Assembly: GCA_040384765.1 (NCBI GenBank)
Contig: JAZKIQ010000004.1
Location: 1-17,905 of the forward strand
DNA length: 17,905 nucleotides
Source of the DNA: Patescibacteria group bacterium
GTDB lineage: Bacteria > Patescibacteriota > Minisyncoccia > Phycocordibacterales > JBBUBG01
Reading direction: 5' to 3'
The number at the start of each line of letters is the position of its first letter. Position 1 is the stretch's first letter. The translations under genes were made by a program, and so were the position numbers. Of this stretch, positions 1,342 through 17,679 are shown in pieces. The notes beneath the pieces are model-generated. The model saw only the letters and a list, made by a program, of their open reading frames with translations, did no database searches and was not told where the DNA came from.

Positions 1342-3867
1342 ATGTCAAGAAAACGAGATCTTTTTAAAACCTTTGTACTCCACAAAGTAGCCCCGCTCGC
1401 AATTGCGACGGTGCTCCTTGTTGGTGGAGGCGCAGCGCTCTGGGCTGCCACCTTGGAGGTACCCTCCTTCGAATCGTTTGCTGAGCGCAAAGTGCTCCAG
1501 TCGACAAAAATATACGACCGCACCGGAGCGGTGGTGCTGTTTGATGTGCACCAAGACATAAAGCGCAAAGTGGTCCCTTTTTCTGAAATCTCTGACACGA
1601 TCAAAGAGGCGACTCTCGCGATCGAAGATGACAGTTTTTACTCACACCACGGCATTAAGCCCAGCTCGATTCTGCGAGCACTTTTGGCTGACATCAAAAC
1701 AGGCTCTTTCAGCCAAGGAGGTTCTACGATCACCCAACAGGTGATCAAAAACGTACTGCTCACCCAAGAGCAAACAATCACACGCAAAATAAAAGAGGCC
1801 ATTCTTGCCATCAAGCTCGAAAGAACTCTCTCGAAAGATCAGATCTTTGAGCTGTATCTCAACGAGTCCCCTTATGGTGGAAATATGTACGGAGTGGAAG
1901 AGGCTTCTCAAACATACTTTGGGAAAAAGGCCAAAGAGGTAACCCTTGCTGAGGCCGCATACCTGGCGGGAATACCGAAGGCCCCTTCTCGATACTATCC
2001 GTATGGTACTCGGTTTAAGGACTTGGTAACTCGAAAAAATCTCGTTCTCTCACGAATGGAGACCCTCGGATATATCACAAAAGAGGAAGCTGTCGCAGCA
2101 AAAGAGGAGGATGTGCATTTCCTCCCTGCAAGCGAATCTGGGATCAAAGCCCCCCATTTTGCGCTGTACGTCCGAGAGTATCTTGAGGAAAAATATGGAA
2201 AAGATGCTATCGAGACGGATGGCTTGCGTGTTATCACAACACTCGATTGGAACCTCCAAAAAAAGGCTGAGGGTATCGTCGCGGAATATGGCAAAGACAA
2301 CGAGGTAAAGTTCAACGCTCACAATGCAGCCATGGTAGGGATCGACCCAAAAACAGGACAGATCCTTGTCATGGTTGGCTCGCGCGACTATTTCGACACA
2401 GAAAACGACGGCAACTTCAACATCACCCTTGCAAAACGTCAGCCAGGATCGTCATTCAAACCGGTCGTCTACGCAACGGCATTTAAAAAAGGGTACACCC
2501 CGGATACCGTAGTTTTTGATGTGAAGACCCAGTTTTCAACCAACTGCGACGCGGACGGCAACCCTCTTGGAGGCGCCCAGGCCGGCACCTGCTATATGCC
2601 AGGCAACTACGACAACGACTTCCGGGGCCCAATGACCTTGCGAAACGCTCTCGCTCAATCGATTAACATCCCCGCGCTAAAGGCACTCTACTTGGTCGGC
2701 ATAAAAGCGGCCCTTGAAACAGCGCGTGACCTTGGAATCACGAGCCTTACTGACCCCACACGCTACGGCCTCACGCTTGTGCTCGGTGGTGGCGAAGTCT
2801 CCCCTCTCGAACTCACCAGTGCCTACGCAGTGTTTGCAAACGACGGCGTTCGCCACCCATACGCATCGATTCTCCGCGTTGAAGACTCGAAAGGAAATGT
2901 GCTCGAAGAGTTTATCGATAACCCAACGACCGTCCTTGATCCCCAGGTTGCGCGCGAGATCAACAGCATCCTATCCGACGATGTCGCACGAAAACCTGCG
3001 TACGGGGAAAACTCTGTTCTCTCCGTCCCTGGCCGCGAAGTGGCAGCAAAGACCGGTACCACCAACGACTACCGTGATGCATGGATCATGGGGTACACGC
3101 CAAACTTCGCTCTCGGTGCGTGGGCTGGAAACAACGACAACTCACCAATGGAAAAGAAGGTGGCTGGCTTCATTGTGGCGCCAATGTGGAACGCCTTTAT
3201 GAAAGAGGCACTCGCGGTCCTTCCCGATGAAAGCTTTACCCGCCCCGAGCCACTCGATCCGAATCTAAAACCTGTGCTCCGCGGTGTGTGGCAGGGAGGC
3301 GAAACGTACACGGTAGATAAAACGACGGGCAAACTTGCAACGGAGTTTACGCCACCTGAAAACCGCGAAGAGCGCTACGTGCGAAACGTACACGACATCC
3401 TTCACTGGGTAAACCGCGCAAACCCTCTTGGACCTGCACCCTCAAATCCAGGGCTCGATTCGCAGTATCACCTTTGGGAAGCCGGGGTCACCAAATGGCT
3501 CGCATCCCACGGCATGCCCGCAGACTTTGGCTCGAAACCCACAGAGTTCGATACCGTACACACCCAAGCGACCCTTCCTGTTATATCAATCACCTCCCCT
3601 ACAAGTGGTGCGGTAGTCTCAAGAAGCGCTCGCCTTTCGGTAAACATTGTACGCAAGTTGTCTGCACAAGCAGAGTATCCCCTGGTATCTGCAGAGTACT
3701 ATCTCAATGGTGCCTACCTTGGTGTAAGCACCGCCGATCCTTTTAGTTTTTCCTTCACCCCTGAAAACGCCTCTTCCCTTCAAACAGAGAACGATCTCAA
3801 AGTAGTAGCAAAAGATTCTATCGGAAACCGGGGCTCGGCTACCGTCCATTTCACCATCTCCGACTAG
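1342..3867 (+). CDS. Class A penicillin-binding protein (PBP1A family; transglycosylase + transpeptidase, C-terminal Ig-like domain)
   Basis: N-terminal TM helix; GT51 motifs EDDSFYSHHG, GGSTITQQ and RKIKE; transpeptidase motifs SxxK (GSSFK), SxN (SIN) and KTG (KTGT); beta-rich C-terminus. ATG 1342 is preferred over TTG 1315. Confidence 0.95.
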   Translation: MSRKRDLFKTFVLHKVAPLAIATVLLVGGGAALWAATLEVPSFESFAERKVLQSTKIYDRTGAVVLFDVHQDIKRKVVPFSEISDTIKEATLAIEDDSFYSHHGIKPSSILRALLADIKTGSFSQGGSTITQQVIKNVLLTQEQTITRKIKEAILAIKLERTLSKDQIFELYLNESPYGGNMYGVEEASQTYFGKKAKEVTLAEAAYLAGIPKAPSRYYPYGTRFKDLVTRKNLVLSRMETLGYITKEEAVAAKEEDVHFLPASESGIKAPHFALYVREYLEEKYGKDAIETDGLRVITTLDWNLQKKAEGIVAEYGKDNEVKFNAHNAAMVGIDPKTGQILVMVGSRDYFDTENDGNFNITLAKRQPGSSFKPVVYATAFKKGYTPDTVVFDVKTQFSTNCDADGNPLGGAQAGTCYMPGNYDNDFRGPMTLRNALAQSINIPALKALYLVGIKAALETARDLGITSLTDPTRYGLTLVLGGGEVSPLELTSAYAVFANDGVRHPYASILRVEDSKGNVLEEFIDNPTTVLDPQVAREINSILSDDVARKPAYGENSVLSVPGREVAAKTGTTNDYRDAWIMGYTPNFALGAWAGNNDNSPMEKKVAGFIVAPMWNAFMKEALAVLPDESFTRPEPLDPNLKPVLRGVWQGGETYTVDKTTGKLATEFTPPENREERYVRNVHDILHWVNRANPLGPAPSNPGLDSQYHLWEAGVTKWLASHGMPADFGSKPTEFDTVHTQATLPVISITSPTSGAVVSRSARLSVNIVRKLSAQAEYPLVSAEYYLNGAYLGVSTADPFSFSFTPENASSLQTENDLKVVAKDSIGNRGSATVHFTISD

Positions 3868-5256: not shown

Positions 5257-5428
5257 AAGATGTGTATGATTTTTTATATAAAACAGTTCACTACTCCTAT
5301 TAGTCCTGTGGATACCGTGGATAACTCAGAAATCTTTTGTAACCACAACGTCTTTTCCCTATTTTCCAACTGCTTCTTTTGTGGACAACTCATCTCTTTT
5401 TCCCCAGATGCCGATTATGTTATGCACT
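5257..5428. promoter_or_regulatory. oriC: oriC unwinding region (DnaA boxes, DnaA-trio-like tract, AT-rich DUE)
   Basis: One-mismatch DnaA boxes at 5307-5315 (TGTGGATAC), 5316-5324 (CGTGGATAA), 5380-5388 (TGTGGACAA), 5398-5406 (TTTTCCCCA) and 5420-5428 (TTATGCACT), plus a weaker box at 5339-5347. An AT-rich tract lies at about 5265-5284, in the dnaA-dnaN intergenic region. Confidence 0.85.
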
Positions 5429-6784
5429 CGCCAAGGTGTTATACAGGATGTTCTTAATCTGTTCTACCTCCTGATTCAACAGGTTATCCACCTTGATATC
5501 CTCTTTTATCTTCTCATATGCGTGAATAACGGTTGTGTGGTCGCGTCCTCCAAGCTTTTGGCCAATATACGGATACGACGTGTTGAAATCCTCGCGAAGG
5601 ATATACATGATTACTTGCCGCGGCTTCACCACCTCTTTGCGACGTGTTTTTTCATAGAGTACACGCTCTTCAATGTTGTAGAACTCCGCAACAATTCGAA
5701 TAACATCCTTGATCGAGATCTGGCGTTGCTGCTTGATGTTGTTTTTGATCAGTACCTTTGCTTCAGCAAGAGAAAGAGGTCTGTTTTTGAGCTGAGCTTG
5801 GCATACGATCGCATTTAAGGTGCCTTCGAGTTCTCGGATCGAGTCGGCGATCACTGAGGCGATATATTCAATAATGCTGTCATCGGGAGCAAACGCCGTC
5901 TGACGCGCCTTTGTTTTGAGAATCGCAAGACGTGACTCAAAGTCAGGCTTGGTTACGTCTGCTTGCATGCCTCCCTCAAAGCGCGATCGAAGACGATCCT
6001 CGAGGCCTACAATCTGTTTTGGTGGCTTGTCCGAGGAGAAGATCACCTGCTTTCCATTTTCATGAAAATGGTTGAACAGATGGAACAACTCTTCCTGGGT
6101 TTTGTCCTTTGCGGTAAGAAACTGGATATCATCAATAATAAGGAGGTCAAACTTCCGGTACTTCTCCTTAAAAAGATGCACTCTGTTTTTGATAACTGAG
6201 TCCACAAAGTCGGTCATCCACCGCTCGCTCGTTACATAGTAGGTTTTTTTGGTAGGGTCGCGTTTTCGCAGCTCGTTGCCAATGGCTTGGAGGAGGTGTG
6301 TCTTCCCTACTCCCGTAGGTCCATAGATAAAAAGCGGGTTGTAGTTCTTGCCGGGGTTTTTTACCACTGCTTGCCCTGCAGCGTATGCCAGTTCATTGAA
6401 GGGGCCGACGATAAAGTCATCGAAGGTGTATTTCGGGTTGAGATTATCCTCCTTGTTTACAAACATTTCAGCAATCGGCATCTGGGCTGCAAAGGTGCCA
6501 GAAGGTGCGGCTGACTCACTTGCCTTCTTTTTGTCATCTATGCGCTCGATTACAAATTCAACACCTCGTACATTCGATGCGTTGGTGCGAAGTATCTCGA
6601 GGATTGTTTTGTGGTGCTTTGCCGAGAGCCAGTCTCGCACAAATGCGTTGGGAACCCCTACGAAGATGATCTCGTCCTCCTCTTTTGCGATGGAGGTGTT
6701 CTTAAACCATGTGTTGAAGTTTGCCTTTGATACCGAAAGTTCAACCTCGGAAAGTGTTTTCTGCCATAGTTCTTTAAGATCCAT
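5420..6784 (-). CDS. dnaA: Chromosomal replication initiator DnaA
   Basis: LNPKYTFDDF, YNPLFIYGPTGVGKTHL (Walker A), LLIIDDIQF (Walker B), RLRSRF and GGRDHTTVIHA (domain IV). The likely true start is ATG 6784 (MDLKELWQ), giving 454 aa. Confidence 0.98.
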   Translation of the reverse strand: MDLKELWQKTLSEVELSVSKANFNTWFKNTSIAKEEDEIIFVGVPNAFVRDWLSAKHHKTILEILRTNASNVRGVEFVIERIDDKKKASESAAPSGTFAAQMPIAEMFVNKEDNLNPKYTFDDFIVGPFNELAYAAGQAVVKNPGKNYNPLFIYGPTGVGKTHLLQAIGNELRKRDPTKKTYYVTSERWMTDFVDSVIKNRVHLFKEKYRKFDLLIIDDIQFLTAKDKTQEELFHLFNHFHENGKQVIFSSDKPPKQIVGLEDRLRSRFEGGMQADVTKPDFESRLAILKTKARQTAFAPDDSIIEYIASVIADSIRELEGTLNAIVCQAQLKNRPLSLAEAKVLIKNNIKQQRQISIKDVIRIVAEFYNIEERVLYEKTRRKEVVKPRQVIMYILREDFNTSYPYIGQKLGGRDHTTVIHAYEKIKEDIKVDNLLNQEVEQIKNILYNTLASA

Positions 6785-8362: not shown

Positions 8363-9580
8363 CTATCTCACCTCTACCGACCAGAGTGCGCCATCAAGCT
8401 TGTTTATGAAATAGAGGTAGGAGCCTGTCGTGTCGATGGTGAGCTTTGTGATATCGAGAAGCTCACGAATACCTTCCCTCTCGGGAGCAAGCACGAGCTC
8501 GGGGTCGCCATCCTCTGAAAAGCGCCACAGCTCATCGTTTGTATGAAAAAGGCCTTTGTACCAAGCGTCGGGGAGCGCTGTTGTTGGGAGAGATGTTGGT
8601 ACAGCGCAAAAGAGTGCGTTGCTCTGGGTCCAGCGGCATTTTTCGGGAAAGGTGGTTATCGGATAGGGTCGCGAAGACTTACCCACGTCGAGCATAGCAG
8701 TTGAGAGTGAGTTTCCGGACGACTGGCTGTAGAGCAGCTCCTTTCCGCTTGGTGATAGTAGCCCCACGATGCCAGGGAGTTCGCCGAGAAGTTCTGTTTG
8801 TGCCCCCGTCTTCACATCGAGAGCGATAATCGCGCCCTCTACCCCAGACGATGCTTTTGTTCCAAGCAGGATCGTGCCCGGAGAGGTCCATGAGATGTTC
8901 CACTCGGTAAGCGGTGAAGAAAAAAGTGGGACACTTTTTTTAGAAACCATATCGAATATCTGACCTACTACGCCGCTCCCGCTTGGCAAGAGTACGAACG
9001 CTTTTTTGCCATCAGGAGAAAACGTAAAGTCGAGAGCTGCCCTTGGAAATGCGGTAGGAATAATCGTTATTTCTGTTGAGGTGGCAGCTGGGAGTGCATA
9101 TGCTGCAGTTCCCAGGAGCCCTGTTTCGGGGTCTTGTGCGCTTATCGCTACCAGTTTTCCGTCGCTTGACCATGATGCGCTCACGATCCCTCGAACGGTA
9201 GTGTTTGAAAGTTTTCGCACATCCCCTGTTTGGGGCGAGGCCTCAAAGATATGTCCGGTGGATCTCTCGATAAAGCGAACGGAGGGTTTGTCGCCGCTCT
9301 CCGCTACCGCGCTCGCTACGCCTGCCGTGAATAGCTTTCGCGCAGGGCTTGGCTCACCGTTTGAGAGAGACGTATCGCTCCCCGTGTTTCCGGTTCCAGC
9401 CGGAGCTCCCCTTGCCGGTACTCCGGAAACATCTTTGCCAAGGGAGACAGGAAATATTCCTGAGCCATCGTCTTGCGGTGCCTCATCGCCCGACCCACTT
9501 CGAAGAACAAAAAAGAGCGCGAGGATAGCAAGAATCGCTACGACAACTGTGCCAACTGCAATCTGTTGAGTGCGGGTCAT
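8363..9580 (-). CDS. Membrane-anchored beta-propeller protein (TolB/PD40-like repeats), paralog 2
   Basis: N-terminal TM helix, a G/S/P linker and repeated WSSDGK/FSPDGK/LSPSGK blades; EKCRW..LFCAVP..LPDAWYKG. Paralog of 10775-12001. Confidence 0.75.
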   Translation of the reverse strand: MTRTQQIAVGTVVVAILAILALFFVLRSGSGDEAPQDDGSGIFPVSLGKDVSGVPARGAPAGTGNTGSDTSLSNGEPSPARKLFTAGVASAVAESGDKPSVRFIERSTGHIFEASPQTGDVRKLSNTTVRGIVSASWSSDGKLVAISAQDPETGLLGTAAYALPAATSTEITIIPTAFPRAALDFTFSPDGKKAFVLLPSGSGVVGQIFDMVSKKSVPLFSSPLTEWNISWTSPGTILLGTKASSGVEGAIIALDVKTGAQTELLGELPGIVGLLSPSGKELLYSQSSGNSLSTAMLDVGKSSRPYPITTFPEKCRWTQSNALFCAVPTSLPTTALPDAWYKGLFHTNDELWRFSEDGDPELVLAPEREGIRELLDITKLTIDTTGSYLYFINKLDGALWSVEVR

Positions 9581-9583
9581 GAT

Positions 9584-10756
9584 CTAAGGATTCTTGAAAA
9601 TAACATGGAAATGGTCGTTGTCCGTGCCTATCCGTTCTCTTCGATATACATCTCCATTCGGTTGAATATATTCGATCGCTGGTCCACTTCCGATGGTTAC
9701 GTCTCGTACCGCCCCTCCCGGCAGAAGGGCAGCCTTGGTGATAAAGTCGACTGTTTTTTTATCGTGGAGGCTTATATCGACAATGTTGCGGCCAACCCTG
9801 TGGGTCTCATGACCCGGTTCGTTGCCACCGGTCACCTGTACGGTGCAGCCCCCACAGGTTGCCTTGAGCGTAATGAGTTTATCGAGGGCAGTTTTGCCCA
9901 TGCCACCCACATCGGTTTTTGGAGCGGTGCTGTTTACGGTGATATCGCCGTCTTTAAGGAGCGCGCGTACTGTCTTGTCGTCTCCAGCAGAGGCGCTTTT
10001 ATGTATTGTTGGGTCATATGCTGTTGCTTCGCCGGCTGTCCCGCTTCGGACTATTTTGCTCCCCCCTCCCGTCACTGCATCCTTTGCCTGTCGAATGGCG
10101 TCCTTAGCTCTCGCTTGTCCCGTCGCTCCTCCCCGCACCTCGATCTTGGGGATCGTGAACTTAAACGCCACGATATTGGGGTTGATGGTACGCAAGATGA
10201 GAAAGCTGCCGAGCGCGATTGCGGTACCGATCCCCGCATTGCGAATACGAGCACGTGCCTCATTCACCCCCTCGATCCGTCCCCCCACCCCACCCCAGAT
10301 GTACTGGAGTCCTGCCCACACAAGCGAAAAGAAAAGTACCACGCCACCAAAGGATATGAACAAAGTGAACAGTGTGCGCAGATAGTCACTCACCCCCTCT
10401 TCACTAATCCCTGCTTTGGTGAGATCAAGCCCGGGAACATTAATCGGTGCAAGAAAGCAGTATGTACCCTGCCCTGCGCCATCTGTGACGCTCGTCTTGC
10501 AGTTGTTCTTGATGACTGACCCTCCGGCAGTTGAGGGAGCAGCAGAGGCAGCTGCAGGAGATTCTCTGGTGGGGAGAGAGTACGAGGTGCCGGAGGTGGG
10601 GGCGTTTGGGGAGGGGGTGCTACCGCTGTCTTGGTCGAGGTCTGTGGGGCCGATGGCGGAGGTGGGTTGGAAGTTTGCAAAGGTAGGAGGTGCAACACAA
10701 AAGAGGCCGAGGAGGGCTGCGGCGACTACAAGCTTTGTGCGGAGGGCGTGATGCAT
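9584..10756 (-). CDS. Signal peptide + T4SS pilin-like (TrbC/VirB2-type) domain + C-terminal M15/LAS-like zinc peptidase domain
   Basis: A signal peptide and P/S/T linker, then two TM helices (YLRTLF...WAGLQYIWGG; RIRNAGIGTAIALGSFLILRTINP). The C-terminus has VTGGNEPGHETHRVGRNIVD and a terminal DHFHV (H..D..HxH zinc ligands). Confidence 0.65.
   Translation of the reverse strand: MHHALRTKLVVAAALLGLFCVAPPTFANFQPTSAIGPTDLDQDSGSTPSPNAPTSGTSYSLPTRESPAAASAAPSTAGGSVIKNNCKTSVTDGAGQGTYCFLAPINVPGLDLTKAGISEEGVSDYLRTLFTLFISFGGVVLFFSLVWAGLQYIWGGVGGRIEGVNEARARIRNAGIGTAIALGSFLILRTINPNIVAFKFTIPKIEVRGGATGQARAKDAIRQAKDAVTGGGSKIVRSGTAGEATAYDPTIHKSASAGDDKTVRALLKDGDITVNSTAPKTDVGGMGKTALDKLITLKATCGGCTVQVTGGNEPGHETHRVGRNIVDISLHDKKTVDFITKAALLPGGAVRDVTIGSGPAIEYIQPNGDVYRRERIGTDNDHFHVIFKNP
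10060..10619. repeat. 560-bp exact direct repeat, copy 1 (pilin core)
   Basis: Compared line by line with 12458-13017 (offset 2398); no mismatch seen. The sequences diverge at 10059/12457 and 10620/13018. Confidence 0.95.
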
Positions 10757-10774
10757 AAAAGGAGATCCCTTCCT

Positions 10775-12001
10775 CTACTCTTCTTGATCTATCTGTACTC
10801 GCCACAGAGTTTGATCTGCTTTGTTTATAAAATAGACAAAGCGGTCGTTCTCGTCTGGGGTTAGGTTGATTATATCGATAAATCCCCGTTTTCCATCGGT
10901 CCCGTCAAACAGCTTTTCAATAAATCCTGTGCGCGAAAAGCCCCAGAGCGCGTCAGCGGTGTGAAAAAGACCTTTGTACCAAGCGTCTGGAAGAGCTGTT
11001 GCTGGCCATACGAGAGGTGCTGCGCAGTAGAGTGTCGAGGTTTTGCCCCAGGTGCATTTTTCAAGAAGAGTGACCGGGTCAAACTCATATGAAGATCCAA
11101 GAGAGAGTGTCACCATTTTGGTGCGTAGGCCTGCGCTACTGTTTTCGGTGACAAGCAGCCGTTTCCCATCGGGAGAAAGAAGCGCTTGGATGCCCGCCGT
11201 ACCTTCGGCAAGCAAACGCTCTGTTCCTGTTTTTGGATCAATACTGAGGGCTACTCCCTCTATCCCCGAAGAGGCCTTTGTAGTAAGGAGGATCTGGCGG
11301 GGATCGGTCCAGGAGATTTGCCATTCTGAAAGTGGAGAGCTCCAGATCTCGCGTTCTTTTCGTGTTGAGAGAGTAACAACGAGCCCCTTCACGCCAGCTC
11401 CCGAGCCACGCAGGAAAAAGAGCTCTTTCCCGTCGGGAGAGAAGGCGAACTCAACCACTCCTCTCGGAAAAGCGATCGGCGTGAGCGATATTTCGGTCGA
11501 GCTTGCCGAAGGGAGCGCGTAGGCACTGTGGGTGTAGGCTCCGATGTTTGAATCTATCTGAAACACGACGGTCTTGCCGTCCGGGCTCCAGATGGCTTTG
11601 GCTATCTGTACGATCGTCGTATTTGAAATTTTTATCGCAGCATCGGCATTCGCGTGTCGGTCGAAAATATGCCCTGTATCTTTTTCTGCGTAGCGCACAA
11701 ACGGGTCGTCTCCCCCAAAAGCTACCATCCCTGCCACGCGACCGGAGGTCAGCTTTGCTCCATCGCTCGGGAGCGCGGCTCCCTCACCCACGTTTCCGTC
11801 GAGAGACAGCGCGGCACTGCTCCCCCTCCCTCCAGTTTGAGATACTGATGTGCCGTCCGAGGTGGGAAAGAGGCCTGAGGCATCGGACGCTCCGGCTCCC
11901 CCTTCGTTTGAGGAGTTGTTTCGGAAAATAAAAAAAGCGAACAGCCCCCCAAGAAGAAGGATAGCTATTCCTGCGCCGATGATTTTTTGCGTGCGTGTCA
12001 T
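10775..12001 (-). CDS. Membrane-anchored beta-propeller protein (TolB/PD40-like repeats), paralog 1
   Basis: The likely start is ATG 12001 (MTRTQKII, matching the paralog's MTRTQQIA, 4 nt after the upstream stop). TM helix; WSPDGK/FSPDGK/LSPDGK blades; EKCTW..LYCAAP..LPDAWYKG. Confidence 0.75.
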   Translation of the reverse strand: MTRTQKIIGAGIAILLLGGLFAFFIFRNNSSNEGGAGASDASGLFPTSDGTSVSQTGGRGSSAALSLDGNVGEGAALPSDGAKLTSGRVAGMVAFGGDDPFVRYAEKDTGHIFDRHANADAAIKISNTTIVQIAKAIWSPDGKTVVFQIDSNIGAYTHSAYALPSASSTEISLTPIAFPRGVVEFAFSPDGKELFFLRGSGAGVKGLVVTLSTRKEREIWSSPLSEWQISWTDPRQILLTTKASSGIEGVALSIDPKTGTERLLAEGTAGIQALLSPDGKRLLVTENSSAGLRTKMVTLSLGSSYEFDPVTLLEKCTWGKTSTLYCAAPLVWPATALPDAWYKGLFHTADALWGFSRTGFIEKLFDGTDGKRGFIDIINLTPDENDRFVYFINKADQTLWRVQIDQEE

Positions 12002-12005
12002 TTTA

Positions 12006-13145
12006 TTAGAGCGGTCTGCGAAGTGTCTCCCAGTACGCCGTACCCCCGATCCATTTTCCTTTCGCATCTTTGCCGGCAATGACCCCCTCTTTTTTGAGCT
12101 GTCTTGCCATAATCTCTACGCCTACTTCAATGTTTTTGTACGGATCTTTCAGATCCTCATTGGAGTAGTTGCGCGCGCGTGCTTCCTTGTCGACGTCGGT
12201 CAGCTGCAAGAGGCCGTAGTTGTTGAGATAGACATCGTTGGGGTTGAAATCTGACTCTCTCTTCGCGATTTTCCCGAGAAGCTCGACCCACCCTTCGTCT
12301 GTCACTTTTCCATCTGGGAAAAAGGCTGCCGCATCTGTGATCGGAATGTTTGAAAGCCCTGTGCGCTGCACCTGTGCGAGTGCATAGGCGTTCCAGCTGT
12401 CGTTGCGGAAGCCAGTTTTACTGGTGAGATTTGTGTTTTCGAGGCGTGGAGCTGTCGTCCCCCCTCCCGTCACTGCATCCTTTGCCTGTCGAATGGCGTC
12501 CTTAGCTCTCGCTTGTCCCGTCGCTCCTCCCCGCACCTCGATCTTGGGGATCGTGAACTTAAACGCCACGATATTGGGGTTGATGGTACGCAAGATGAGA
12601 AAGCTGCCGAGCGCGATTGCGGTACCGATCCCCGCATTGCGAATACGAGCACGTGCCTCATTCACCCCCTCGATCCGTCCCCCCACCCCACCCCAGATGT
12701 ACTGGAGTCCTGCCCACACAAGCGAAAAGAAAAGTACCACGCCACCAAAGGATATGAACAAAGTGAACAGTGTGCGCAGATAGTCACTCACCCCCTCTTC
12801 ACTAATCCCTGCTTTGGTGAGATCAAGCCCGGGAACATTAATCGGTGCAAGAAAGCAGTATGTACCCTGCCCTGCGCCATCTGTGACGCTCGTCTTGCAG
12901 TTGTTCTTGATGACTGACCCTCCGGCAGTTGAGGGAGCAGCAGAGGCAGCTGCAGGAGATTCTCTGGTGGGGAGAGAGTACGAGGTGCCGGAGGTGGGGG
13001 CGTTTGGGGAGGGGGTGAATTCGAGCTGAACGTCGCTGACCCCACTACTTGGAGTTGGAGCAATTGCCGCAGCTAGTGCAGAGTTACTCCCTAGAAAAAG
13101 AGTTAAAAGAAGGACTGCGAGTTGTGCAAAAAAGAGGCGTCTCAC
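12006..13145 (-). CDS. Signal peptide + T4SS pilin-like domain + C-terminal SLT-family lytic transglycosylase
   Basis: The GTG start overlaps the upstream TGA. Same pilin core as 9584-10756. The C-terminus has IAKRESDFNP (catalytic ES), YGLLQL and LKDPYKNIEVG. Confidence 0.75.
   Translation of the reverse strand: MRRLFFAQLAVLLLTLFLGSNSALAAAIAPTPSSGVSDVQLEFTPSPNAPTSGTSYSLPTRESPAAASAAPSTAGGSVIKNNCKTSVTDGAGQGTYCFLAPINVPGLDLTKAGISEEGVSDYLRTLFTLFISFGGVVLFFSLVWAGLQYIWGGVGGRIEGVNEARARIRNAGIGTAIALGSFLILRTINPNIVAFKFTIPKIEVRGGATGQARAKDAIRQAKDAVTGGGTTAPRLENTNLTSKTGFRNDSWNAYALAQVQRTGLSNIPITDAAAFFPDGKVTDEGWVELLGKIAKRESDFNPNDVYLNNYGLLQLTDVDKEARARNYSNEDLKDPYKNIEVGVEIMARQLKKEGVIAGKDAKGKWIGGTAYWETLRRPL
12458..13017. 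repeat. 560-bp exact direct repeat, copy 2 (pilin core)
   Basis: Identical to 10060-10619; the alternative-frame ORFs in the track are also duplicated. Confidence 0.95.
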
Positions 13146-14128
13146 TTTTCAAAGGTGATAAAGAAGCTGTTACGGGCGGACTGCAAGATCTTTCGGATGT
13201 TCTCAGCTGCAAAACCGATCTGGCTTGCTCCCGATCCCCCTTCTCCTGAACGGAGTGTTAGAACAAAGGGATCAGTTCCCGAGGGCACGATCTCACCGTT
13301 GATGCTCCAGGCTGATTTTAGTGTTGCGAGAGAGATATCTTCGAGCGAGACGAAATAGGGCGCTGCTCGCACCGTTGCCTCGCCTTCGAGAAGTGCGGCA
13401 CCTGCGTCGAGCGTGCTTTCAAGGATTGTGCCTGAAAGCGGACTCTCTTCGTAGAAATGTATCTCCGGCTCGACTTCGGGAAGCTCGACTGTTTTTTCTG
13501 TCGTTATGGTGCCGTCTGTGGTCGACACGAGTACGGAGACAACCGACCCCCCCTGGATCAGATCTTTTTTATAAAAAAGAACATTTTTACCAAAGCCCGA
13601 TGCTTGATTTTTTATCTTGTTGTCTACTTTCCAGGTGTATACCAGCTTTTCGGATGGGACCTCTTTCCCTCCACTAAAGAGGTGTGGCATAGCCACTATC
13701 TTCATCGTGGCTTCCGGTGAAGGAAGTGCCTTGCCTTTGTACCCAAGCGGTACAAATGTTTGTGCTTCCCACAGAAGGCTTACTGAGCCCGGGTTGATCG
13801 AAAGCGTTTTGGTGACGGCGCTGTTGCCCGAGCGTACGGTAATGCCGATCCGTGTTACAACCCCACGTTTACCTGTGCTAAAGAAAAGCTCTTTCTCCCC
13901 CATACCAGAAAGTACCTGTCGGCCATTTATCGTCCAGGTGATCGTCGAGCTATCAAGATCCACAGAAAAGTTTTGAAGTACGATGCGAGCAGGAACCTCG
14001 GGCCCTGGGTACTGCGGGAATACAAGAGCCGTAAGCTCGCTTCCTCCGAAGCCACCAATCTGCGCGCGGGTCGCAAGCGGCACAAGGAGGAAAATGAAGG
14101 CTAGTAATAAAAAAGTTTTGTATTTCAT
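13142..14128 (-). CDS. Secreted beta-rich protein with about three Ig/PKD-like domains
   Basis: Signal peptide (..ATRA|Q) and three repeats of a W-x-[IV]-[ND]-[GN] motif (ITWTING, YTWKVDN, SAWSING). ATGA/GTGA overlaps with both neighbours. Confidence 0.6.
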   Translation of the reverse strand: MKYKTFLLLAFIFLLVPLATRAQIGGFGGSELTALVFPQYPGPEVPARIVLQNFSVDLDSSTITWTINGRQVLSGMGEKELFFSTGKRGVVTRIGITVRSGNSAVTKTLSINPGSVSLLWEAQTFVPLGYKGKALPSPEATMKIVAMPHLFSGGKEVPSEKLVYTWKVDNKIKNQASGFGKNVLFYKKDLIQGGSVVSVLVSTTDGTITTEKTVELPEVEPEIHFYEESPLSGTILESTLDAGAALLEGEATVRAAPYFVSLEDISLATLKSAWSINGEIVPSGTDPFVLTLRSGEGGSGASQIGFAAENIRKILQSARNSFFITFEK

Positions 14129-14556
14129 GCTGCTTTGCGAGGGGTAAAGTCTGGTCGTCGTGACGCTCCGAGTCGCGCCCGGGTTACCACAGCAAGGTCA
14201 ATTTTTGTTTTCTCAGCTTGTTTCTTTTCATGCTGCTTTTTATCTTCTTTCCATGAGTTGCGTATCACTATGAAAGCATCGAGCGAAAAAAAGCTTCCCT
14301 GGTCTGTTCCCGGGAGAAGCTCCAGGATGATGGCGATGAACGTGATCACCAGATTTTTGCCGCCAAAGAGGTTTACTCCATAGATTTTAAGCCAAAACCA
14401 GAGCATAAAATAGCCCGAAAGGGTGATGAGCCAGTTGATCACCACTCCGATGAGCGCCCATTCGAGGATCACTTGTATCAGGTCGACGCATGCGGTGCCG
14501 ATGAGGGTGAGGAGTGCAATTGGTGTGCTTATGCGGTATTCGATCTGGTGGTTCAT
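14125..14556 (-). CDS. Small polytopic membrane protein of the T4SS-like operon
   Basis: Three to four hydrophobic segments and a basic C-tail; ATGA overlaps with the VirB4 gene and with the downstream gene. Confidence 0.65.
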   Translation of the reverse strand: MNHQIEYRISTPIALLTLIGTACVDLIQVILEWALIGVVINWLITLSGYFMLWFWLKIYGVNLFGGKNLVITFIAIILELLPGTDQGSFFSLDAFIVIRNSWKEDKKQHEKKQAEKTKIDLAVVTRARLGASRRPDFTPRKAA

Positions 14557-16385
14557 CGGGAGGTTGGCTTAACTTCTGGGTGTGTTTGTCCGTACTCCTC
14601 TTTTGCTTCGCGGATAGCAAGGAGTTGTGAAGGGTCGGAGGTGATGATCTGGTCTTCGGTGTATGAGGCGATCACTTTGATTGCCGCATGTTTGAGCCCT
14701 GCAAAAAAGATCCCCTCCCCCACGGCAGATTCAAGCAGAAGAAACTTCTCCTCTTCGGTGAGGTTGAACGTTTTTTGGATTGCATCGATCGATGCAGGAG
14801 ACTGCTTAAGCAACAGCTGCATCGAAGAGTTGGTGACAATTGGCAGACCATACGGAGATTTCATGAAGTCCTCGACGTCTTGAGTGATCGTCGCAAGACC
14901 AAGGAAATATTTACGTCCACGTTTTGCAAGCGAAAAGAGGAACGAAGCGGTGTCCTCGGACTTCATCATCCACCATGCCTCGTCGATCACGAGGAGTCGC
15001 TTGCGCAGATTGCGGCGCACAGCGCCCCAGATATAGTTCATTACGATATGCATCGCGACAGGCTTGAGTTCGTCTTCCATGTCGCGCACAGAAAAGACGA
15101 TGAATTTTTTGTTGATATCGATATTCGTGGGGCGGTTGATGAACCCTGCCCACGATCCTTGGGTATATTTGAGCATTCGAGTCGCAAGCGAGCCACCGCC
15201 CTCCATGCCTGCAAGTACGAGCTCGAGGTCTGAGAGGAGGGGCGGGTCAAGATGGGCTCCTGCTGCGATGGACTCTACGGTGATATCTTTGAGAGCGTAT
15301 GTTTCGGTGATAGCAGAGTCTACGATCGAATCCTCTTCGGGCGTAAGACCGCCGAGCATGATTCGAAAGAGGCCCACCAGAGTGATGATGTGCGAGCGGA
15401 GGACATCTGCAGGAGACTCATCTTCTCGTACCGGTGGAAGATCAAATGGGTTGATATGGTGCTCTGAGGTAAGCGAGATATTAAAATAGCGCCCCCCTAC
15501 TGCGTCGGCCATATATTCGTACTCTCGTTCTGGGTCGATCACAATCACTTCAGTATCAAACATCAGGGTGCGAAGGATCTCGAGCTTTGTTGCGTACGAC
15601 TTGCCAGAGCCTGCTTTTGCAAAGGTGACGGAGTTGTAGTTTTCAAGCGAGAACCGGTCGAACAGGATAAGGCTCGAGTTGTGGCGGTTGATGCCGTACA
15701 AAATACCTTTGTCGCTCGTGAGGTCGAACGAAATAAAAGGAAAGAGTGAAGAGAGTGGCGAAGAGTTGAGCTTTGAGTGGACCTCGATCTTATCTTCGCC
15801 CACAGGAAGCACGCTTTTCCACGCCTCTTCTTGCTGGAAAAGTGCTGGCTTTACGTAGATAAGTCGTGACTCGAGGATTGACTTGATCTCTGCCTCGGTT
15901 TTCTCGAGCTCTGCCTCGTTTTCTCCGTAGATCGTGATGTAAAGGCCTACATCAAAAAGCCGCTCTTGTGCCTGCTGGAGCTGATTGCGCAGCTGCTCCA
16001 CATCTTGGTATGCGGTGTCGAGCACCGGGTCGCGCACAAATCCTTTTTCGGAGCGTATAGAAATCTGGCTCTGGATCTCGGCCGCTTTTTTCTGGAGCTT
16101 TTTGAGCACTGACGCTGTGTCGACTGGGTGAACGAAGATGGCTACATCAAAAATCTTGTCGAGGTTGATGATCGGTGCAAACCAGTTTTCAGAAAGAAAG
16201 CGCGGGTATGAGATGACATAAAAAGTACGGGATACCTTTTCGCCAAGGTGGAGGTTTTTGGGTGTTATGTTGAGTGCCGACGGAGCGATGACGTCTTTGA
16301 GCTCAAGGACGCCTGCCGAATAGATATCCTCGGGGAGGATAGGTGCGATTTCCGGTTCATTTTTCTTGTTGCCGAAGATTGACAT
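14553..16385 (-). CDS. virB4: VirB4/TraC-like type IV secretion ATPase
   Basis: Walker A (AKAGSGKS), VIDPEREY, HINPFD, Walker B (LLVIDEAW), KRGRKY and ITQDVEDF. Confidence 0.88.
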   Translation of the reverse strand: MSIFGNKKNEPEIAPILPEDIYSAGVLELKDVIAPSALNITPKNLHLGEKVSRTFYVISYPRFLSENWFAPIINLDKIFDVAIFVHPVDTASVLKKLQKKAAEIQSQISIRSEKGFVRDPVLDTAYQDVEQLRNQLQQAQERLFDVGLYITIYGENEAELEKTEAEIKSILESRLIYVKPALFQQEEAWKSVLPVGEDKIEVHSKLNSSPLSSLFPFISFDLTSDKGILYGINRHNSSLILFDRFSLENYNSVTFAKAGSGKSYATKLEILRTLMFDTEVIVIDPEREYEYMADAVGGRYFNISLTSEHHINPFDLPPVREDESPADVLRSHIITLVGLFRIMLGGLTPEEDSIVDSAITETYALKDITVESIAAGAHLDPPLLSDLELVLAGMEGGGSLATRMLKYTQGSWAGFINRPTNIDINKKFIVFSVRDMEDELKPVAMHIVMNYIWGAVRRNLRKRLLVIDEAWWMMKSEDTASFLFSLAKRGRKYFLGLATITQDVEDFMKSPYGLPIVTNSSMQLLLKQSPASIDAIQKTFNLTEEEKFLLLESAVGEGIFFAGLKHAAIKVIASYTEDQIITSDPSQLLAIREAKEEYGQTHPEVKPTSR

Positions 16386-16386
16386 G

Positions 16387-17061
16387 CTATTTGGCTTGCG
16401 CGGTGACCGAGGTCATCCCCTCAACTACGGGCCGCTCGAGATCGCCGGGGTTGAATATTTTGTAAAACAGCTCCACGAGTTCTTCGGTGCCAAGGGGCAA
16501 CGCGCGCACTCCTGCGCGGACGAGGCCTTGGGCCACCACAGACGCGCGCTGCTCGAGCTGCGCGCGGTTTTCTTCGAACGCCTCTCTCTTTGCGCCCGTC
16601 TCGGCAGAGTTTTGTTTGCTCCCAAAGAGGGTGCCAAGAAAGCCAACGGCCTTTCCCTGCCCTACGGCAAACGGAGGCGTGTACGGAATAATGACAAAGA
16701 ATGTTTTTGTCATTATCGATACAGAGTCGGTGAAGCTTTTGATGAACTGCACATATTCACGAGTCTGAATCTTGATCAGGTCGTTTACCTGCACCTTCAT
16801 GCGTTCTTCAAGGAGTGAGATATAGGGGCGAATATCGAGACGGCGCGACTGGATATAGATCTGTACGGAAAAATCGAGAGAGTTGAGAAAGTTTTGATAC
16901 TGAGAGATGATCGCCGTTTGTTCGTCGGCCGATTTGAGCGCAAAGTTGAGCGATGAGCAGATAAGCGCCATCGCGAGTGTGCCATCTTTGAGGACCACTA
17001 CACCGTCGTGGATCTCATCAATAGGTAGGAACTCTTGTGCTGCTTTTGACGCTTTGGCCAT
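16387..17061 (-). CDS. VirB4-associated protein (resembles the TraC/VirB4 N-terminal region)
   Basis: LNFALKSADEQ..YQNFLNSLDFSVQI..; 1 nt from the VirB4 start; lies between prgI and virB4. Confidence 0.6.
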   Translation of the reverse strand: MAKASKAAQEFLPIDEIHDGVVVLKDGTLAMALICSSLNFALKSADEQTAIISQYQNFLNSLDFSVQIYIQSRRLDIRPYISLLEERMKVQVNDLIKIQTREYVQFIKSFTDSVSIMTKTFFVIIPYTPPFAVGQGKAVGFLGTLFGSKQNSAETGAKREAFEENRAQLEQRASVVAQGLVRAGVRALPLGTEELVELFYKIFNPGDLERPVVEGMTSVTAQAK

Positions 17062-17109: not shown

Positions 17110-17517
17110 TTATTTCTGTACCTTTTCTTGTACGTCGAGTGACCAGGCAAGGTCTTTGAGCTTGCTGCGAGATACTCTTTCGATAGAAAGGGGCTGTTGT
17201 TTAGGGAGAATGAGGTCCTCCTCCTTTTTTACCGGCTTGTCTTCCCTGTGCCATGTGTAGAGCTTTGGGCCGAGCTGGTAGCGTACCCATGCGGCGAGAG
17301 CGTAGATAAAAGGCCGTTCGTTTACTTTGTAGAAAGCGAGTGCGAGCGAAAGGCCGGCGAATCCGAGAATGGCGGGAACGGCTAGGAAGGTGGGAAAGAT
17401 CTGGTAGAGGATAAAGCTTCCTGCTCCCCCGCCCGCTACATAGAGAAACTGCTTGAACGTGAGCCGTCCAAACAGCTTGTCTTCAACATCGATGAATTGA
17501 GGAACTTGAAATTGCAT
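17110..17517 (-). CDS. prgI: PrgI family protein (VirB3-like T4SS membrane component)
   Basis: MQFQVPQFIDVEDKLFGRLTFKQF, two TM helices, then KVNERPF..PKLYTW. ATG 17517 is preferred and is preceded by TATACT + 6 nt. Confidence 0.8.
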   Translation of the reverse strand: MQFQVPQFIDVEDKLFGRLTFKQFLYVAGGGAGSFILYQIFPTFLAVPAILGFAGLSLALAFYKVNERPFIYALAAWVRYQLGPKLYTWHREDKPVKKEEDLILPKQQPLSIERVSRSKLKDLAWSLDVQEKVQK

Positions 17518-17523
17518 ATGTAC

Positions 17524-17529
17524 AGTATA
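17524..17529 (-). promoter_or_regulatory. Putative -10 element of prgI (TATACT)
   Basis: The minus strand reads TATACT-gtacat-ATG(17517). Confidence 0.55.
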
Positions 17530-17533
17530 GCTC

Positions 17534-17679
17534 ACCTTCTTAAAACTCATTTCGGGACTCGGGCGTTTCTCGGGAAAAGCACGATACTTTTCTGCTGAAA
17601 AGTTCTCTACTCAGCGCCTTCGCGCTTCCGTAAGGCTTTTCCCGAGAAGCGCCCTCGAGCCTCATGGATTTAAGAAGGT
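17534..17679. repeat. Nested inverted-repeat element (MITE/REP-like or structured RNA)
   Basis: An outer 11-bp IR (ACCTTCTTAAA at 17534-17544 / 17669-17679), a 20-bp IR with 1 mismatch (17561-17580 / 17635-17654) and inner hairpins at 17586-17603 and 17613-17626. Confidence 0.75.

What the first reader, a model, noticed from the sequence alone, without database searches (positions are those of the whole stretch)
10060..13017. 560-bp 100% identical direct repeat within otherwise diverged paralogous modules: gene conversion or a domain-switching cassette
Seen: 10060-10619 equals 12458-13017 with no mismatch, even at synonymous sites. The signal peptides and C-terminal domains are unrelated, and the flanking beta-propeller paralogs are heavily diverged. 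An old duplication therefore has a recently homogenised centre. The repeat ends almost exactly at the GGG linker where the enzyme domain begins. Inference: a crossover between the copies would excise 2398 bp (SLT domain + propeller 1 + start of pilin 2) and fuse the first gene's signal peptide and pilin in frame to the peptidase domain. Unequal crossover would expand the array, as in Rhs/CDI C-terminal swapping.
Basis: partly seen in the sequence, partly recalled or inferred. Interest (0 to 1): 0.8.

Follow-up and report, generated by a model that had tools for sequence, protein, structure and literature searches.

The report
Two wall-cutting enzymes share one pilin module
Two neighbouring secretion-system genes of an ultrasmall (Patescibacteria) bacterium join the same pilin-like membrane module to two different cell-wall-cutting enzymes, and copying between the two genes (gene conversion) keeps that module's DNA identical, as it does in related genomes.

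Summary
Window 10060-10619 equals 12458-13017 exactly over 560 nt. It is the only repeat of 150 nt or more at 90% identity in the 822-kb genome.

The repeat encodes a VirB2-like T4SS_pilin membrane hairpin. Two minus-strand genes of an origin-proximal type IV secretion locus share it: pilin-SLT lytic transglycosylase (13145-12006) and pilin-LAS-like zinc peptidase (10756-9584). A beta-propeller gene follows each.

The propeller paralogs are 45% identical, and their 4-fold sites are saturated (30 of 111 identical; chance 0.256). The duplication is therefore old and the pilin identity recent.

I examined 93 related loci. All 8 that carry two or more such modules show 90-100% nucleotide identity confined to the module. 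The modules pair by genome in a tree, whereas the enzyme ends find their counterparts in other genomes.

Best reading: recurrent gene conversion (concerted evolution). The module probably has to stay the same because both enzymes dock to the same machine.

A programmed Rhs/CDI-like switching cassette is not supported. An assembly artefact is unlikely, though only low-depth contigs could be laid.

This scan has found the same pattern before on other DNA. I found no description of it in the papers searched.

The parts
12458..13017 (-). Repeat copy 1: pilin module (Pro/Ser/Thr-rich linker, Cys pair, two-helix membrane hairpin, linker ending GGG) inside the pilin-SLT gene
   Evidence: Exact 560-nt identity with 10060-10619. 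PF18895 T4SS_pilin E 0.0013, 19.2 bits for the whole protein; 22.6 bits for the module alone.
10060..10619 (-). Repeat copy 2: the same pilin module inside the pilin-LAS-like peptidase gene
12006..13145 (-). Pilin-SLT gene (379 aa): leader, pilin module, SLT lytic transglycosylase domain
   Evidence: PF01464 SLT, 35.4 bits against a cut-off of 21.3, residues 284-352. ORF.
9584..10756 (-). Pilin-X gene (390 aa): leader, pilin module, 158-aa C-terminal domain X, read as a LAS-type zinc peptidase
   Evidence: No Pfam match for X. 139 relatives in the 1.84-billion-protein library; 23 of 38 scanned carry T4SS_pilin. G79, H87 and D95 are invariant and E81, H84, E142 and H150 nearly so. AF2 model pLDDT 90. 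The best structural matches are ShhN, MepA and VanY/VanX-type peptidases, Z 6.4-3.6.
10775..12001 (-). Propeller gene 1 (membrane-anchored PD40-like beta-propeller). The likely start is the ATG at 12001, not the TTG at 12079.
   Evidence: PF07676 PD40, 29.8 bits. The alignment with propeller 2 begins at residue 27 of the long ORF.
8363..9580 (-). Propeller gene 2, paralog of propeller 1
   Evidence: 45% identity, E 9e-111. 4-fold sites are saturated.
13142..14128 (-). Conserved secreted protein of 328 aa with no known family; always lies between virB4 and the pilin-hydrolase gene in relatives
   Evidence: No Pfam match. Found at 24-39% identity (best segment) in 10 of the 12 relatives' loci compared.
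14125..14556 (-). Small membrane protein (143 aa) of the locus
   Evidence: ORF. Weak matches in 4 of 12 relatives.
14553..16385 (-). VirB4-type ATPase
   Evidence: PF19044 88.3 bits, PF12846 and PF01935. 71-78% identical in relatives.
16387..17061 (-). 224-aa protein, perhaps a split-off VirB4/TraC N-terminal domain
   Evidence: Weak TraC_F_IV match, E 0.011, profile positions 19-174. 54-60% identical in relatives.
17110..17550 (-). PrgI (VirB3-like)
   Evidence: PF12666, 35.1 bits against a cut-off of 27.
8517..8587 (-). 71-nt stretch, 80% identical to 10935-11005: the conserved C-terminal motif (ALPDAWYKGLFHT) of the two propellers, i.e. residual paralogy

Best explanation
The repeat is the coding sequence of a VirB2-like 'T4SS_pilin' module: a linker, a Cys pair, a two-helix membrane hairpin and a linker ending GGG. 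Two paralogous genes of the Patescibacteria (Paceibacteria-type) type IV secretion locus next to dnaA share it. Each gene joins the module to a different peptidoglycan hydrolase. One is an SLT lytic transglycosylase, which cuts glycan strands. The other is a LAS-type zinc peptidase, which cuts peptide stems or cross-links. Together they form a split, membrane-anchored counterpart of the two-domain VirB1-like hydrolases of Gram-positive T4SSs.

Shown:
- The 2.4-kb unit [pilin-hydrolase + propeller] was duplicated long ago.
- The pilin part alone is base-identical.
- The same domain-limited identity recurs in every related locus examined that has two or more such modules.

Inferred:
- The identity comes from recent homologous-recombination gene conversion between the tandem copies, i.e. 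concerted evolution.
- The tract stops where homology stops. Downstream that is the unrelated enzyme domains; upstream it is the saturated leaders.
- Conversion is kept, or favoured, because the fast-evolving module is the part that docks both enzymes to the same partner in the T4SS or co-assembles with pilins, so the two copies must change together.

A crossover between the copies can also delete or amplify units. That would be an evolutionary by-product, not a programmed switch.
For: 1. Exact 560-nt identity with abrupt ends. It is the only long repeat in the genome.

2. The duplication is old. The propeller paralogs are 45% identical. Their 4-fold sites match at 30 of 111 (27%) against a chance value of 0.256, and the longest run of identical codons is 5. 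The pilin module has 186 of 186 identical codons.

3. The pattern recurs. I examined 93 loci: the window, 12 and 80. Of these, 79 have one or more modules by my own HMM, 71 have one and 8 have two or more. In 8 of 8 the nucleotide identity is high only in the module:
- window: 560 nt at 100%
- L034: 364 nt at 100%
- L058: 295 nt at 99.0%
- L033: 370 nt at 97.3%
- L090: 389 nt at 94.3%
- L065: 368 nt at 93.8%
- L051: 287 nt at 89.9%, plus 338 nt at 93.8% inside one gene
- L035: 103 nt at 90.3% inside a module that is only 60% identical in protein. This includes 24 identical codons in a row, where elsewhere only 17 of 57 same-residue codons are identical, which marks a short conversion tract.
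A permissive search found no diverged second module in any single-module locus.

4. In a tree of 87 modules, each genome's modules are sisters on long stems (0.33-1.36 changes per site). The paired loci lie in at least 6 places of the tree.

5. The enzyme ends instead match across genomes. SLT-type: window-L090 43%, L051-L065 43%. CHAP/NlpC-type: L034-L090 42%, L034-L065 37%.

6. Internal control: five small tandem pilin genes on contig C9 of the same genome are at most 45% identical in protein. Proximity alone does not homogenise pilins here.

7. The pairs combine a glycosidase with a peptidase: SLT, SLT_3 or 3D with CHAP/NlpC-P60 or the LAS-like domain.

8. A second assembler's contigs of the one run that holds this DNA reproduce all the junctions (left flank/repeat, repeat/middle at both ends, repeat/right flank). 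They show no variant in the repeat.
Against: - Only Logan contigs of one run could be laid, at a word depth of about 6, and that run is probably the source of the assembly. The repeat contig has depth 9.55 against 5.8, 6.5 and 8.05 for the flanks, which is less than double. A few real differences between the copies could have been smoothed away, and the order of the pieces is not proven by spanning reads.
- The single recA gene of this assembly carries an in-frame TAG (C10:21391). TAG is a normal stop in the window. Recombination proficiency is therefore not shown, although at this depth the TAG may be an error.
- Gene order differs between two related paired loci: L065 has SLT-type then CHAP-type, L090 the reverse. 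Simple inheritance of one ancestral pair does not explain this.
- The selective reason (shared docking or co-assembly) is inference only.
- The tree is a quick one on 101 columns with many unresolved forks.
Confidence: 0.8

Rival explanations
1. Birth-and-death with domain shuffling. The pilin module, or a whole pilin-enzyme gene, was duplicated recently and joined to another enzyme domain. The identity then reflects youth, not conversion, and such pairs are lost before they diverge.
For: - The enzyme ends are very diverse among 87 fusion ORFs.
- The closest database relative of this module (P0141, 61% identical) carries a third kind of C-terminal domain.
- Gene order differs between L065 and L090.
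- L051 has an in-frame tandem duplication of the module inside one gene.
- No long-diverged pair was seen.
Against: - In the window the two genes sit in a duplicated 2.4-kb unit whose propeller halves are saturated at synonymous sites, and the leaders are diverged. A recent event would have to place 560 nt in frame between an old leader and an old enzyme domain.
- L065 has diverged but alignable N-terminal regions on one side of the identical core.
- L035 shows a short tract inside an old, 60%-identical module.
- The same two enzyme types recur in different paired genomes.
Confidence: 0.1
2. A programmed or frequently used switching cassette. Crossover between the two 560-nt copies deletes SLT plus propeller 1, or unequal exchange expands the array, to change the enzyme displayed, as in Rhs/CDI C-terminal swapping.
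For: - The copies are direct, in the same codon phase and long enough for RecA recombination, so an in-frame fusion would result.
- The contig graph (left flank-repeat-middle-repeat-right flank) cannot tell the full form from a mix with a deleted form.
- Module number varies from 1 to 3 among genomes.
Against: - Both genes are complete and tightly packed in one operon with their own leaders.
- There is no promoterless or orphan cassette, no immunity-like gene, and no recombinase or inverted repeat nearby.
- A deletion would be irreversible.
- The middle piece has the same depth as the flanks (6.5 against 5.8 and 8.05).
- In 7 other paired loci the genes are adjacent and both retained.
Confidence: 0.04
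3. Assembly artefact. Two similar but different copies, or two strains, were collapsed to one consensus and written twice, or the middle piece was misjoined.
For: - Low depth, about 6.
- The repeat (560 nt) is longer than short-read k-mers, so an assembler had to resolve it by pairing.
- The repeat contig has depth 9.55, less than twice the flanks.
- The only run holding the DNA is probably the source.
Against: - Independent contigs of that run break exactly at 10060 and 10619, carry all the junctions and show no other letters.
- Seven other genome records show the same domain-limited similarity, five of them at 90-99%. Collapse cannot produce that.
- The protein architecture is coherent in both genes.
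Confidence: 0.04

Closest known systems
Patescibacteria origin-proximal T4SS with VirB2-like pilins (Quinonero-Coronel et al. 2025, PMC12102498; passages read)
   Same: Same locus type: PrgI/VirB3 and VirB4 of the monoderm (MPF-FATA-like) class, PF18895 pilins near virB4, and a position next to dnaA/dnaN. The paper notes that VirB1 homologues are associated with virB4 in Paceibacteria.
   Different: The passages I read describe pilin arrays as highly variable: mean 25% and maximum 54% amino-acid identity. They mention neither pilin-hydrolase fusions nor identical modules. Here the hydrolase-fused modules are 90-100% identical in DNA within genomes. The small pilin array of the same genome fits the paper's picture, at 45% or less. 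I did not read the supplements.
Two-domain VirB1-like hydrolases of Gram-positive T4SSs (PrgK of pCF10, TraG of pIP501; known to me from the reference list and text of PMC12102498, and from recall)
   Same: A glycan-cutting SLT domain plus a peptide-cutting domain serving one T4SS, held at the membrane.
   Different: There the domains sit in one polypeptide with a plain membrane anchor. Here they sit in two genes, each on a VirB2-like hairpin, and the peptidase is LAS-like in the window rather than CHAP.
Concerted evolution of duplicated T4SS pilus genes in Bartonella Trw (Nystedt et al. 2008, Mol Biol Evol; seen only as a citation in PMC3483213) and of bacterial paralogs such as tufA/tufB (recalled)
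   Same: Recombination between tandem or duplicated copies keeps them alike within a genome while they diverge between genomes.
   Different: Here homogenisation is limited to one domain of multidomain proteins whose other domains are unrelated. It recurs in many deeply diverged lineages.
Polymorphic toxin loci (Rhs, CdiA, LXG), with a constant N-terminal delivery part and swappable C-terminal parts (recalled)
   Same: It works alike in one respect: a constant delivery or docking module carries variable C-terminal enzyme domains, and recombination acts at the constant part.
   Different: No orphan cassettes and no immunity genes. Both genes are complete and co-retained. The C-terminal domains are housekeeping-type wall hydrolases expected of a T4SS.

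Membership tests
T4SS_pilin (PF18895) / VirB2-like pilin | Match to the family profile at or above its curated cut-off (26.6 bits) | tested here: inconclusive
   The window module scores 19.1-22.6 bits, E 1e-4 to 1e-3, below the cut-off. Of 69 aligned homologous modules, 63 match PF18895 at E <= 0.001 and 5 match TrbC/VirB2. My HMM links the window module to them at E 2e-25.
T4SS_pilin (PF18895) / VirB2-like pilin | Leader followed by two hydrophobic helices joined by a short basic loop; encoded next to virB4 | tested here: met
   The two hydrophobic stretches and the Arg-rich loop VGGRIEGVNEARARIRN are read from the sequence. The gene lies 1.4 kb from virB4, with the same placement in relatives. 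The topology (both ends outside) is inferred, not tested.
SLT lytic transglycosylase (PF01464) | Profile match above the cut-off; catalytic Glu-Ser motif | tested here: met
   35.4 bits against 21.3. The strings KRESDF and GLLQL are present in the sequence. The motif names are recalled.
LAS zinc metallopeptidases (Hedgehog/DD-peptidase fold; M15-like) | Sequence match to a curated family (e.g. Peptidase_M15_4) | tested here: not met
   No Pfam family for domain X at E <= 10. No PDB sequence match apart from a repeat artefact. Some other fusions in relatives do match PF13539.
LAS zinc metallopeptidases (Hedgehog/DD-peptidase fold; M15-like) | Shared fold | tested here: inconclusive
   Model pLDDT 90. 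Foldseek PDB found nothing at E <= 0.001. VIA-align gave ShhN Z 6.4, 6.1 and 5.4, MepA 5.1, VldE 4.6, LdcB 4.5, T5 peptidase 4.0 and VanXY/VanX/DacB/DD-peptidase/VanY 4.0-3.6. That makes 13 of the top 16 rows LAS-type, but all lie under the tool's Z 8 caution line.
LAS zinc metallopeptidases (Hedgehog/DD-peptidase fold; M15-like) | Conserved His...Asp and His-x-His metal/catalytic residues | tested here: met
   H87 and D95 are invariant; H84, E142 and H150 are 90% or more conserved in 38 sequences. The window has H87-x7-D95 and H150-F-H152. The spacing differs by one residue from the motif I recall.
Concerted evolution by gene conversion | Paralogs closer within a genome than orthologs between genomes, while flanking parts keep orthology | tested here: met
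Concerted evolution by gene conversion | Identical tract with sharp ends between old, diverged flanks; mosaic tracts in some pairs | tested here: met
   L035 has a tract of 24 identical codons in a module that is 60% identical.
Concerted evolution by gene conversion | Homologous recombination machinery present | tested here: inconclusive
   There is one recA match (E 7e-136), but the assembly has an in-frame TAG in it.
Rhs/CDI-type C-terminal switching cassettes | Orphan, promoterless C-terminal cassettes with immunity genes downstream of a full-length gene | tested here: not met
   Both genes have starts and leaders. The gene after each is a conserved propeller found in 74 of the 93 loci.
PrgK/TraG-type bifunctional VirB1 hydrolase | Glycosidase and peptidase domains in one polypeptide | tested here: not met
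   Each protein has one enzyme domain.

The most novel reading that the evidence does not exclude
The pilin-hydrolase proteins are real building blocks or tip or base subunits of the Patescibacterial T4SS pilus, not mere anchors. The identical VirB2-like modules let a glycan-cutter and a peptide-cutter co-polymerise in one filament or ring that displays wall-degrading enzymes. This could open the bacterium's own wall for the machine, or breach the wall of the host cell on which these epibionts live. Because the module evolves fast (about 30% identity between families), gene conversion would be the device that lets both subunits follow the same changing interface. That would make the homogenisation selected rather than incidental.
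Probability: 0.2. Interest if true: 0.75.

Novelty: new variant of a known kind. Interest (0 to 1): 0.5.

Why it matters
Passages read report that the T4SS of Patescibacteria is essential for epibiotic growth in the one genetically tractable species, and that how it is built and what it does remain open.

This finding shows that its wall-cutting enzymes are fused to the pilin-like module. It also shows that evolution keeps that module identical between the two enzymes in genome after genome. That singles out the module as the part which must fit something else in the machine. It gives a concrete, testable handle: which partner binds the module, and are the enzymes displayed on a pilus?

It is also a clean natural example of domain-limited concerted evolution in very small genomes that otherwise have no repeats.

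Tried and rejected
- Complex prediction on four copies of the pilin module (alignment A2): verdict 'no answer', score 0.00, partner fold uncertain. I draw no conclusion from it.
- Scan of metagenome contigs with the module: 591 pattern matches, none a relative.
- The search for homologous proteins: only the two own proteins and one 61% relative. Strain-level comparison of module number was therefore impossible.
- Runs X2 and X3 of the same study hold next to none of the stretch.
- PDB sequence search with domain X: the WD40 'hits' are sums of weak matches of one short segment to repeated blades, with per-stretch E of 25 or more. The profile search found nothing meaningful.
- Foldseek against the PDB: no match at E <= 0.001.
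- Clustering of the C-terminal tails was confounded by shared linker residues. I repeated it with later cut points.
- The careful tree search did not finish in 300 s, so I used the quick tree.
- Direct repeats in L075 turned out to be a roughly 110-140-nt intergenic element, not pilin modules.
- L110 has a 112-nt inverted repeat upstream of virB4, which is unrelated.
- The search of earlier findings near this place: nothing.
- I saw no microhomology, hairpin or inverted repeat at the repeat ends.

Full report
OBSERVATION

Window 10060-10619 and 12458-13017 are identical over exactly 560 nt. Outside these limits, per-bin identity drops at once to chance level (one search lists the first 300 nt). 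The own genome (G000: 822,710 bases, 12 contigs, 99.83% complete) holds only these two copies. A megablast of the genome against itself finds no other repeat of 150 nt or more at 90%.

ANATOMY

All genes of the region lie on the minus strand and are tightly packed. In order they are:
- PrgI/VirB3-like, 17550-17110
- a 224-aa protein, 17061-16387
- VirB4, 16385-14553
- a 143-aa membrane protein, 14556-14125
- a 328-aa secreted protein, 14128-13142
- pilin-SLT, 13145-12006
- propeller 1, 12001-10775
- pilin-X, 10756-9584
- propeller 2, 9580-8363

Then follow yidC, dnaA and dnaN.

Each repeat copy encodes the same 186 residues: a Pro/Ser/Thr-rich linker, a Cys pair, two hydrophobic helices joined by an Arg-rich loop, and a linker ending GGG. 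This part matches Pfam T4SS_pilin weakly, at 19-23 bits against a cut-off of 26.6. It belongs to a family in which 63 of 69 aligned members match that profile at E <= 0.001.

After GGG the two proteins are unrelated. One has an SLT domain, 35.4 bits against 21.3. The other has a 158-aa domain X with no Pfam match.

DOMAIN X

- X has 139 relatives at E <= 0.001 among 1.84 billion representative proteins.
- Of 38 that I scanned, 23 carry T4SS_pilin in front of it. Pilin-X is therefore a common design.
- In an alignment of 38 sequences, G79, H87 and D95 are invariant, and E81, H84, E142 and H150 are nearly so.
- The AlphaFold model is confident, with mean pLDDT 90.1.
- Foldseek found no PDB match.
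- VIA-align against 48,161 chains put Sonic/Drosophila hedgehog N-domains first (Z 6.4, 6.1, 5.4). Then came MepA (5.1), VldE (4.6), the VanY-like LdcB (4.5), the T5 L-alanoyl-D-glutamate peptidase (4.0) and VanXY, VanX, DacB, the Streptomyces DD-peptidase and VanY (4.0-3.6).

Each Z is modest, below the tool's caution line of 8. But the list is almost purely the LAS (hedgehog/DD-peptidase) fold, and the conserved His/Asp/His residues fit it. I read X as a LAS-type zinc peptidase, with moderate confidence.

IS THE ASSEMBLY RIGHT?

One public run (X1) holds 0.99 of the sampled words, and it may be the source. Its Logan contigs, made by another assembler, were laid on 9000-12457, a stretch that holds one copy only. 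They give:
- one contig that is exactly the 560-nt repeat (depth 9.55);
- one that runs from the left flank 30 nt into the repeat (depth 5.8);
- one that covers the whole middle piece with 30 nt of repeat at both ends (depth 6.5);
- one that leaves the repeat into the right flank (depth 8.05).

No other letters, gaps or joints lie inside the repeat. All junctions of the assembly therefore exist in the reads.

The limits are these:
- Depth is low.
- The repeat's depth is less than double the flanks'.
- Contigs drop minor variants.
- No read spans a copy.

'Exactly 100%' and the order of the pieces are thus likely but not proven.

AGE OF THE DUPLICATION

The two propellers are 45% identical in protein. 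At 4-fold degenerate sites they agree at 30 of 111 (27%), where base composition alone gives 25.6%. The longest run of identical codons is 5. The leaders of the two hydrolase genes are also diverged. Between these saturated flanks lie 186 identical codons. An old tandem duplication of a 2.4-kb unit with a recently homogenised pilin part is the simplest reading.

Among the 74 of the 93 loci that have a propeller hit, only the window has two propellers. This duplication unit is therefore particular to this lineage.

RELATIVES

The gene order PrgI, 224-aa protein, VirB4, (143-aa protein), 328-aa protein, pilin fusion, propeller, next to yidC and dnaA, is conserved in 10 of the 12 loci fetched from genomes of the same order. 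L033 and L038 matched only the pilin domain.

A scan of species-representative genomes with VirB4 gave 80 more loci. They are titled Paceibacteria, Parcubacteria or other Patescibacteria.

I built an HMM of the module from these loci. Of 93 loci, 79 have a hit: 71 have one module and 8 have two or more. The other 14 have none; several of them are cut by contig ends. A permissive search (E <= 10) found no diverged second module in the single-module loci.

In all 8 multi-module loci the two genes are similar in DNA only over the module:

| Locus | Stretch | Identity |
|---|---|---|
| window | 560 nt | 100% |
| L034 | 364 nt | 100% |
| L058 | 295 nt | 99.0% |
| L033 | 370 nt | 97.3% |
| L090 | 389 nt | 94.3% |
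| L065 | 368 nt | 93.8% |
| L051 | 287 nt (plus 338 nt at 93.8% between two modules inside one gene) | 89.9% |
| L035 | 103 nt | 90.3% |

In L035 the modules are only 60% identical in protein. They nevertheless hold a run of 24 identical codons, whereas elsewhere in the same alignment only 17 of 57 same-residue positions have the same codon. That is the mark of a short conversion tract.

The graded series from 90% to 100% also argues against assembler collapse as the general cause.

WITHIN VERSUS BETWEEN GENOMES

- In a quick maximum-likelihood tree of 87 modules, the modules of each genome are sisters on long stems. The paired loci fall in at least 6 places. L065, L034 and L090 form one group.
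- The enzyme ends, cut after the shared part, match across genomes instead. SLT-type: window-L090 43%, L051-L065 43%, L051-L090 36%. CHAP/NlpC-type: L034-L090 42%, L034-L065 37%, L065-L090 32%.
- Pfam names for the pairs are: SLT with the LAS-like domain (window); SLT with an unknown domain (L033); SLT_3 with a weak DUF7057 match (L035); 3D with an unknown domain (L058); an unnamed end with CHAP/NlpC (L065; its unnamed end groups with the SLT-type ends); NlpC/P60 with SLT (L090); an unknown domain with a weak CHAP match (L034).

The usual pair is thus a glycan cutter plus a peptide cutter.

Modules that pair by genome while the enzyme ends pair by type is what concerted evolution predicts.

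Against a simple single origin, the gene order is reversed between L065 and L090.

CONTROL IN THE SAME GENOME

Contig C9 carries five small tandem T4SS_pilin genes within 2.3 kb. Their best pairwise identity is 45% in protein, in line with the published picture of variable pilin arrays. Tandem position alone therefore does not homogenise pilin genes in this organism. The hydrolase-fused modules are special.

MECHANISM

Shown: the facts above.

Inferred: gene conversion by homologous recombination between the direct copies. The tract is bounded by the loss of homology in the enzyme domains and in the leaders.

I further infer that identity is useful. Between families the module is only about 22-35% identical, so it evolves fast. 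If it is the part that docks to the T4SS or packs with pilins, two enzymes that must sit in the same place need the same module, and conversion provides that.

The genome has one recA match, but the assembly shows an in-frame TAG in it, and TAG ends 7 of the 14 window genes checked. At this depth I cannot tell an error from a real defect.

RIVALS

- Recent duplication with domain shuffling (0.10). It fits the diversity of the enzyme ends and the third kind of end on the closest database relative, P0141. It does not fit the saturated flanks or the mosaic L035 pair.
- A switching cassette (0.04). It has no supporting feature beyond the geometry. Both genes are complete, there are no orphan cassettes, recombinase or inverted repeats, and the middle piece is as deep as the flanks.
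- An artefact (0.04). This is discussed above.

KNOWN OR NEW?

In the two T4SS papers I read only the passages found by term search. Quinonero-Coronel et al. 2025 (PMC12102498) describe this T4SS, its pilins and its place near dnaA. They report pilin arrays with at most 54% identity. They mention no pilin-hydrolase fusion and no gene conversion ('gene conversion' 0 occurrences; 'fused' and 'fusion' refer only to VirB3-VirB4). The 2025 FEMS review (PMC12857230) likewise speaks of sequence-divergent pilins.

Six searches found no paper on this pattern:
- 'Patescibacteria, type IV secretion, VirB4, pilin'
- 'Southlakia epibionticum, type IV secretion, lysozyme'
- 'PF18895'
- 'concerted evolution, gene conversion, type IV secretion, VirB2'
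- 'gene conversion, Patescibacteria' (listing only)
- 'pilin, peptidoglycan hydrolase, Candidate Phyla Radiation, fused'

I did not open the supplements of PMC12102498; they may list such proteins.

Concerted evolution of duplicated T4SS pilus genes is known from Bartonella Trw (Nystedt et al. 2008). I saw that only as a citation.

This scan has already reported the same pattern on at least eight other genomes. I reached my reading before that look-up, and those notes agree with it.

I class the finding as a new variant of a known kind. The mechanism is ordinary. Its domain-limited, lineage-wide use on pilin-anchored T4SS hydrolases is not in the literature I could search.

NOTE ON DATA

The order-wide family search included one unpublished genome, G251. 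It enters only that call's tally (398 of 401 genomes with a T4SS_pilin match). No claim here rests on it.

Noticed in passing
G000 contig C10:21085-21864 (stop at 21391): The only recA match of the genome has an in-frame TAG (…KLGVKI*DLLISQPD…). TAG is an ordinary stop in the window's genes. It is either a sequencing error at about 6x depth or a disrupted recA.
   Followed up: partly
G000 contig C9:8578-10841: An array of five small tandem T4SS_pilin genes (80-180 aa), at most 45% identical to each other. It contrasts with the identical hydrolase-fused modules.
   Followed up: yes
window 16387-17061 (-): The 224-aa protein just upstream of VirB4 weakly matches the N-terminal part of TraC/VirB4 (PF11130, E 0.011, profile positions 19-174). 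VirB4 itself matches only the later part, so the N-terminal domain may be a separate gene. It is conserved at 54-60% in relatives.
   Followed up: partly
L075:3162-3298, 3646-3783, 5408-5533 and 11070-11190 (inverted): In a Campbellbacteria record, an intergenic element of about 110-140 nt occurs four times (86-94% identity) between the T4SS genes and once, inverted, 6 kb away. Its function is unknown.
   Followed up: partly
L051:13882-15306: One gene holds two pilin modules in tandem (period 393 nt, 93.8% identical) before its SLT-type end. It is followed by a third module in the next gene, so the module array can expand in frame.
   Followed up: partly
window 10775-12079 (-): The longest ORF of propeller 1 starts at a TTG that overlaps the SLT gene by 74 nt. 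The alignment with propeller 2 suggests the real start is the ATG at 12001, 4 nt after the SLT stop.
   Followed up: partly
window 8363-12079 compared with 93 loci: Only this locus has two propeller genes, so the duplicated unit here is hydrolase plus propeller. In the 7 other paired loci the two hydrolase genes are adjacent and share one propeller.
   Followed up: yes
L110:9886-9997: A 112-nt inverted repeat (89% identity) lies just upstream of virB4 in one related record.
   Followed up: no
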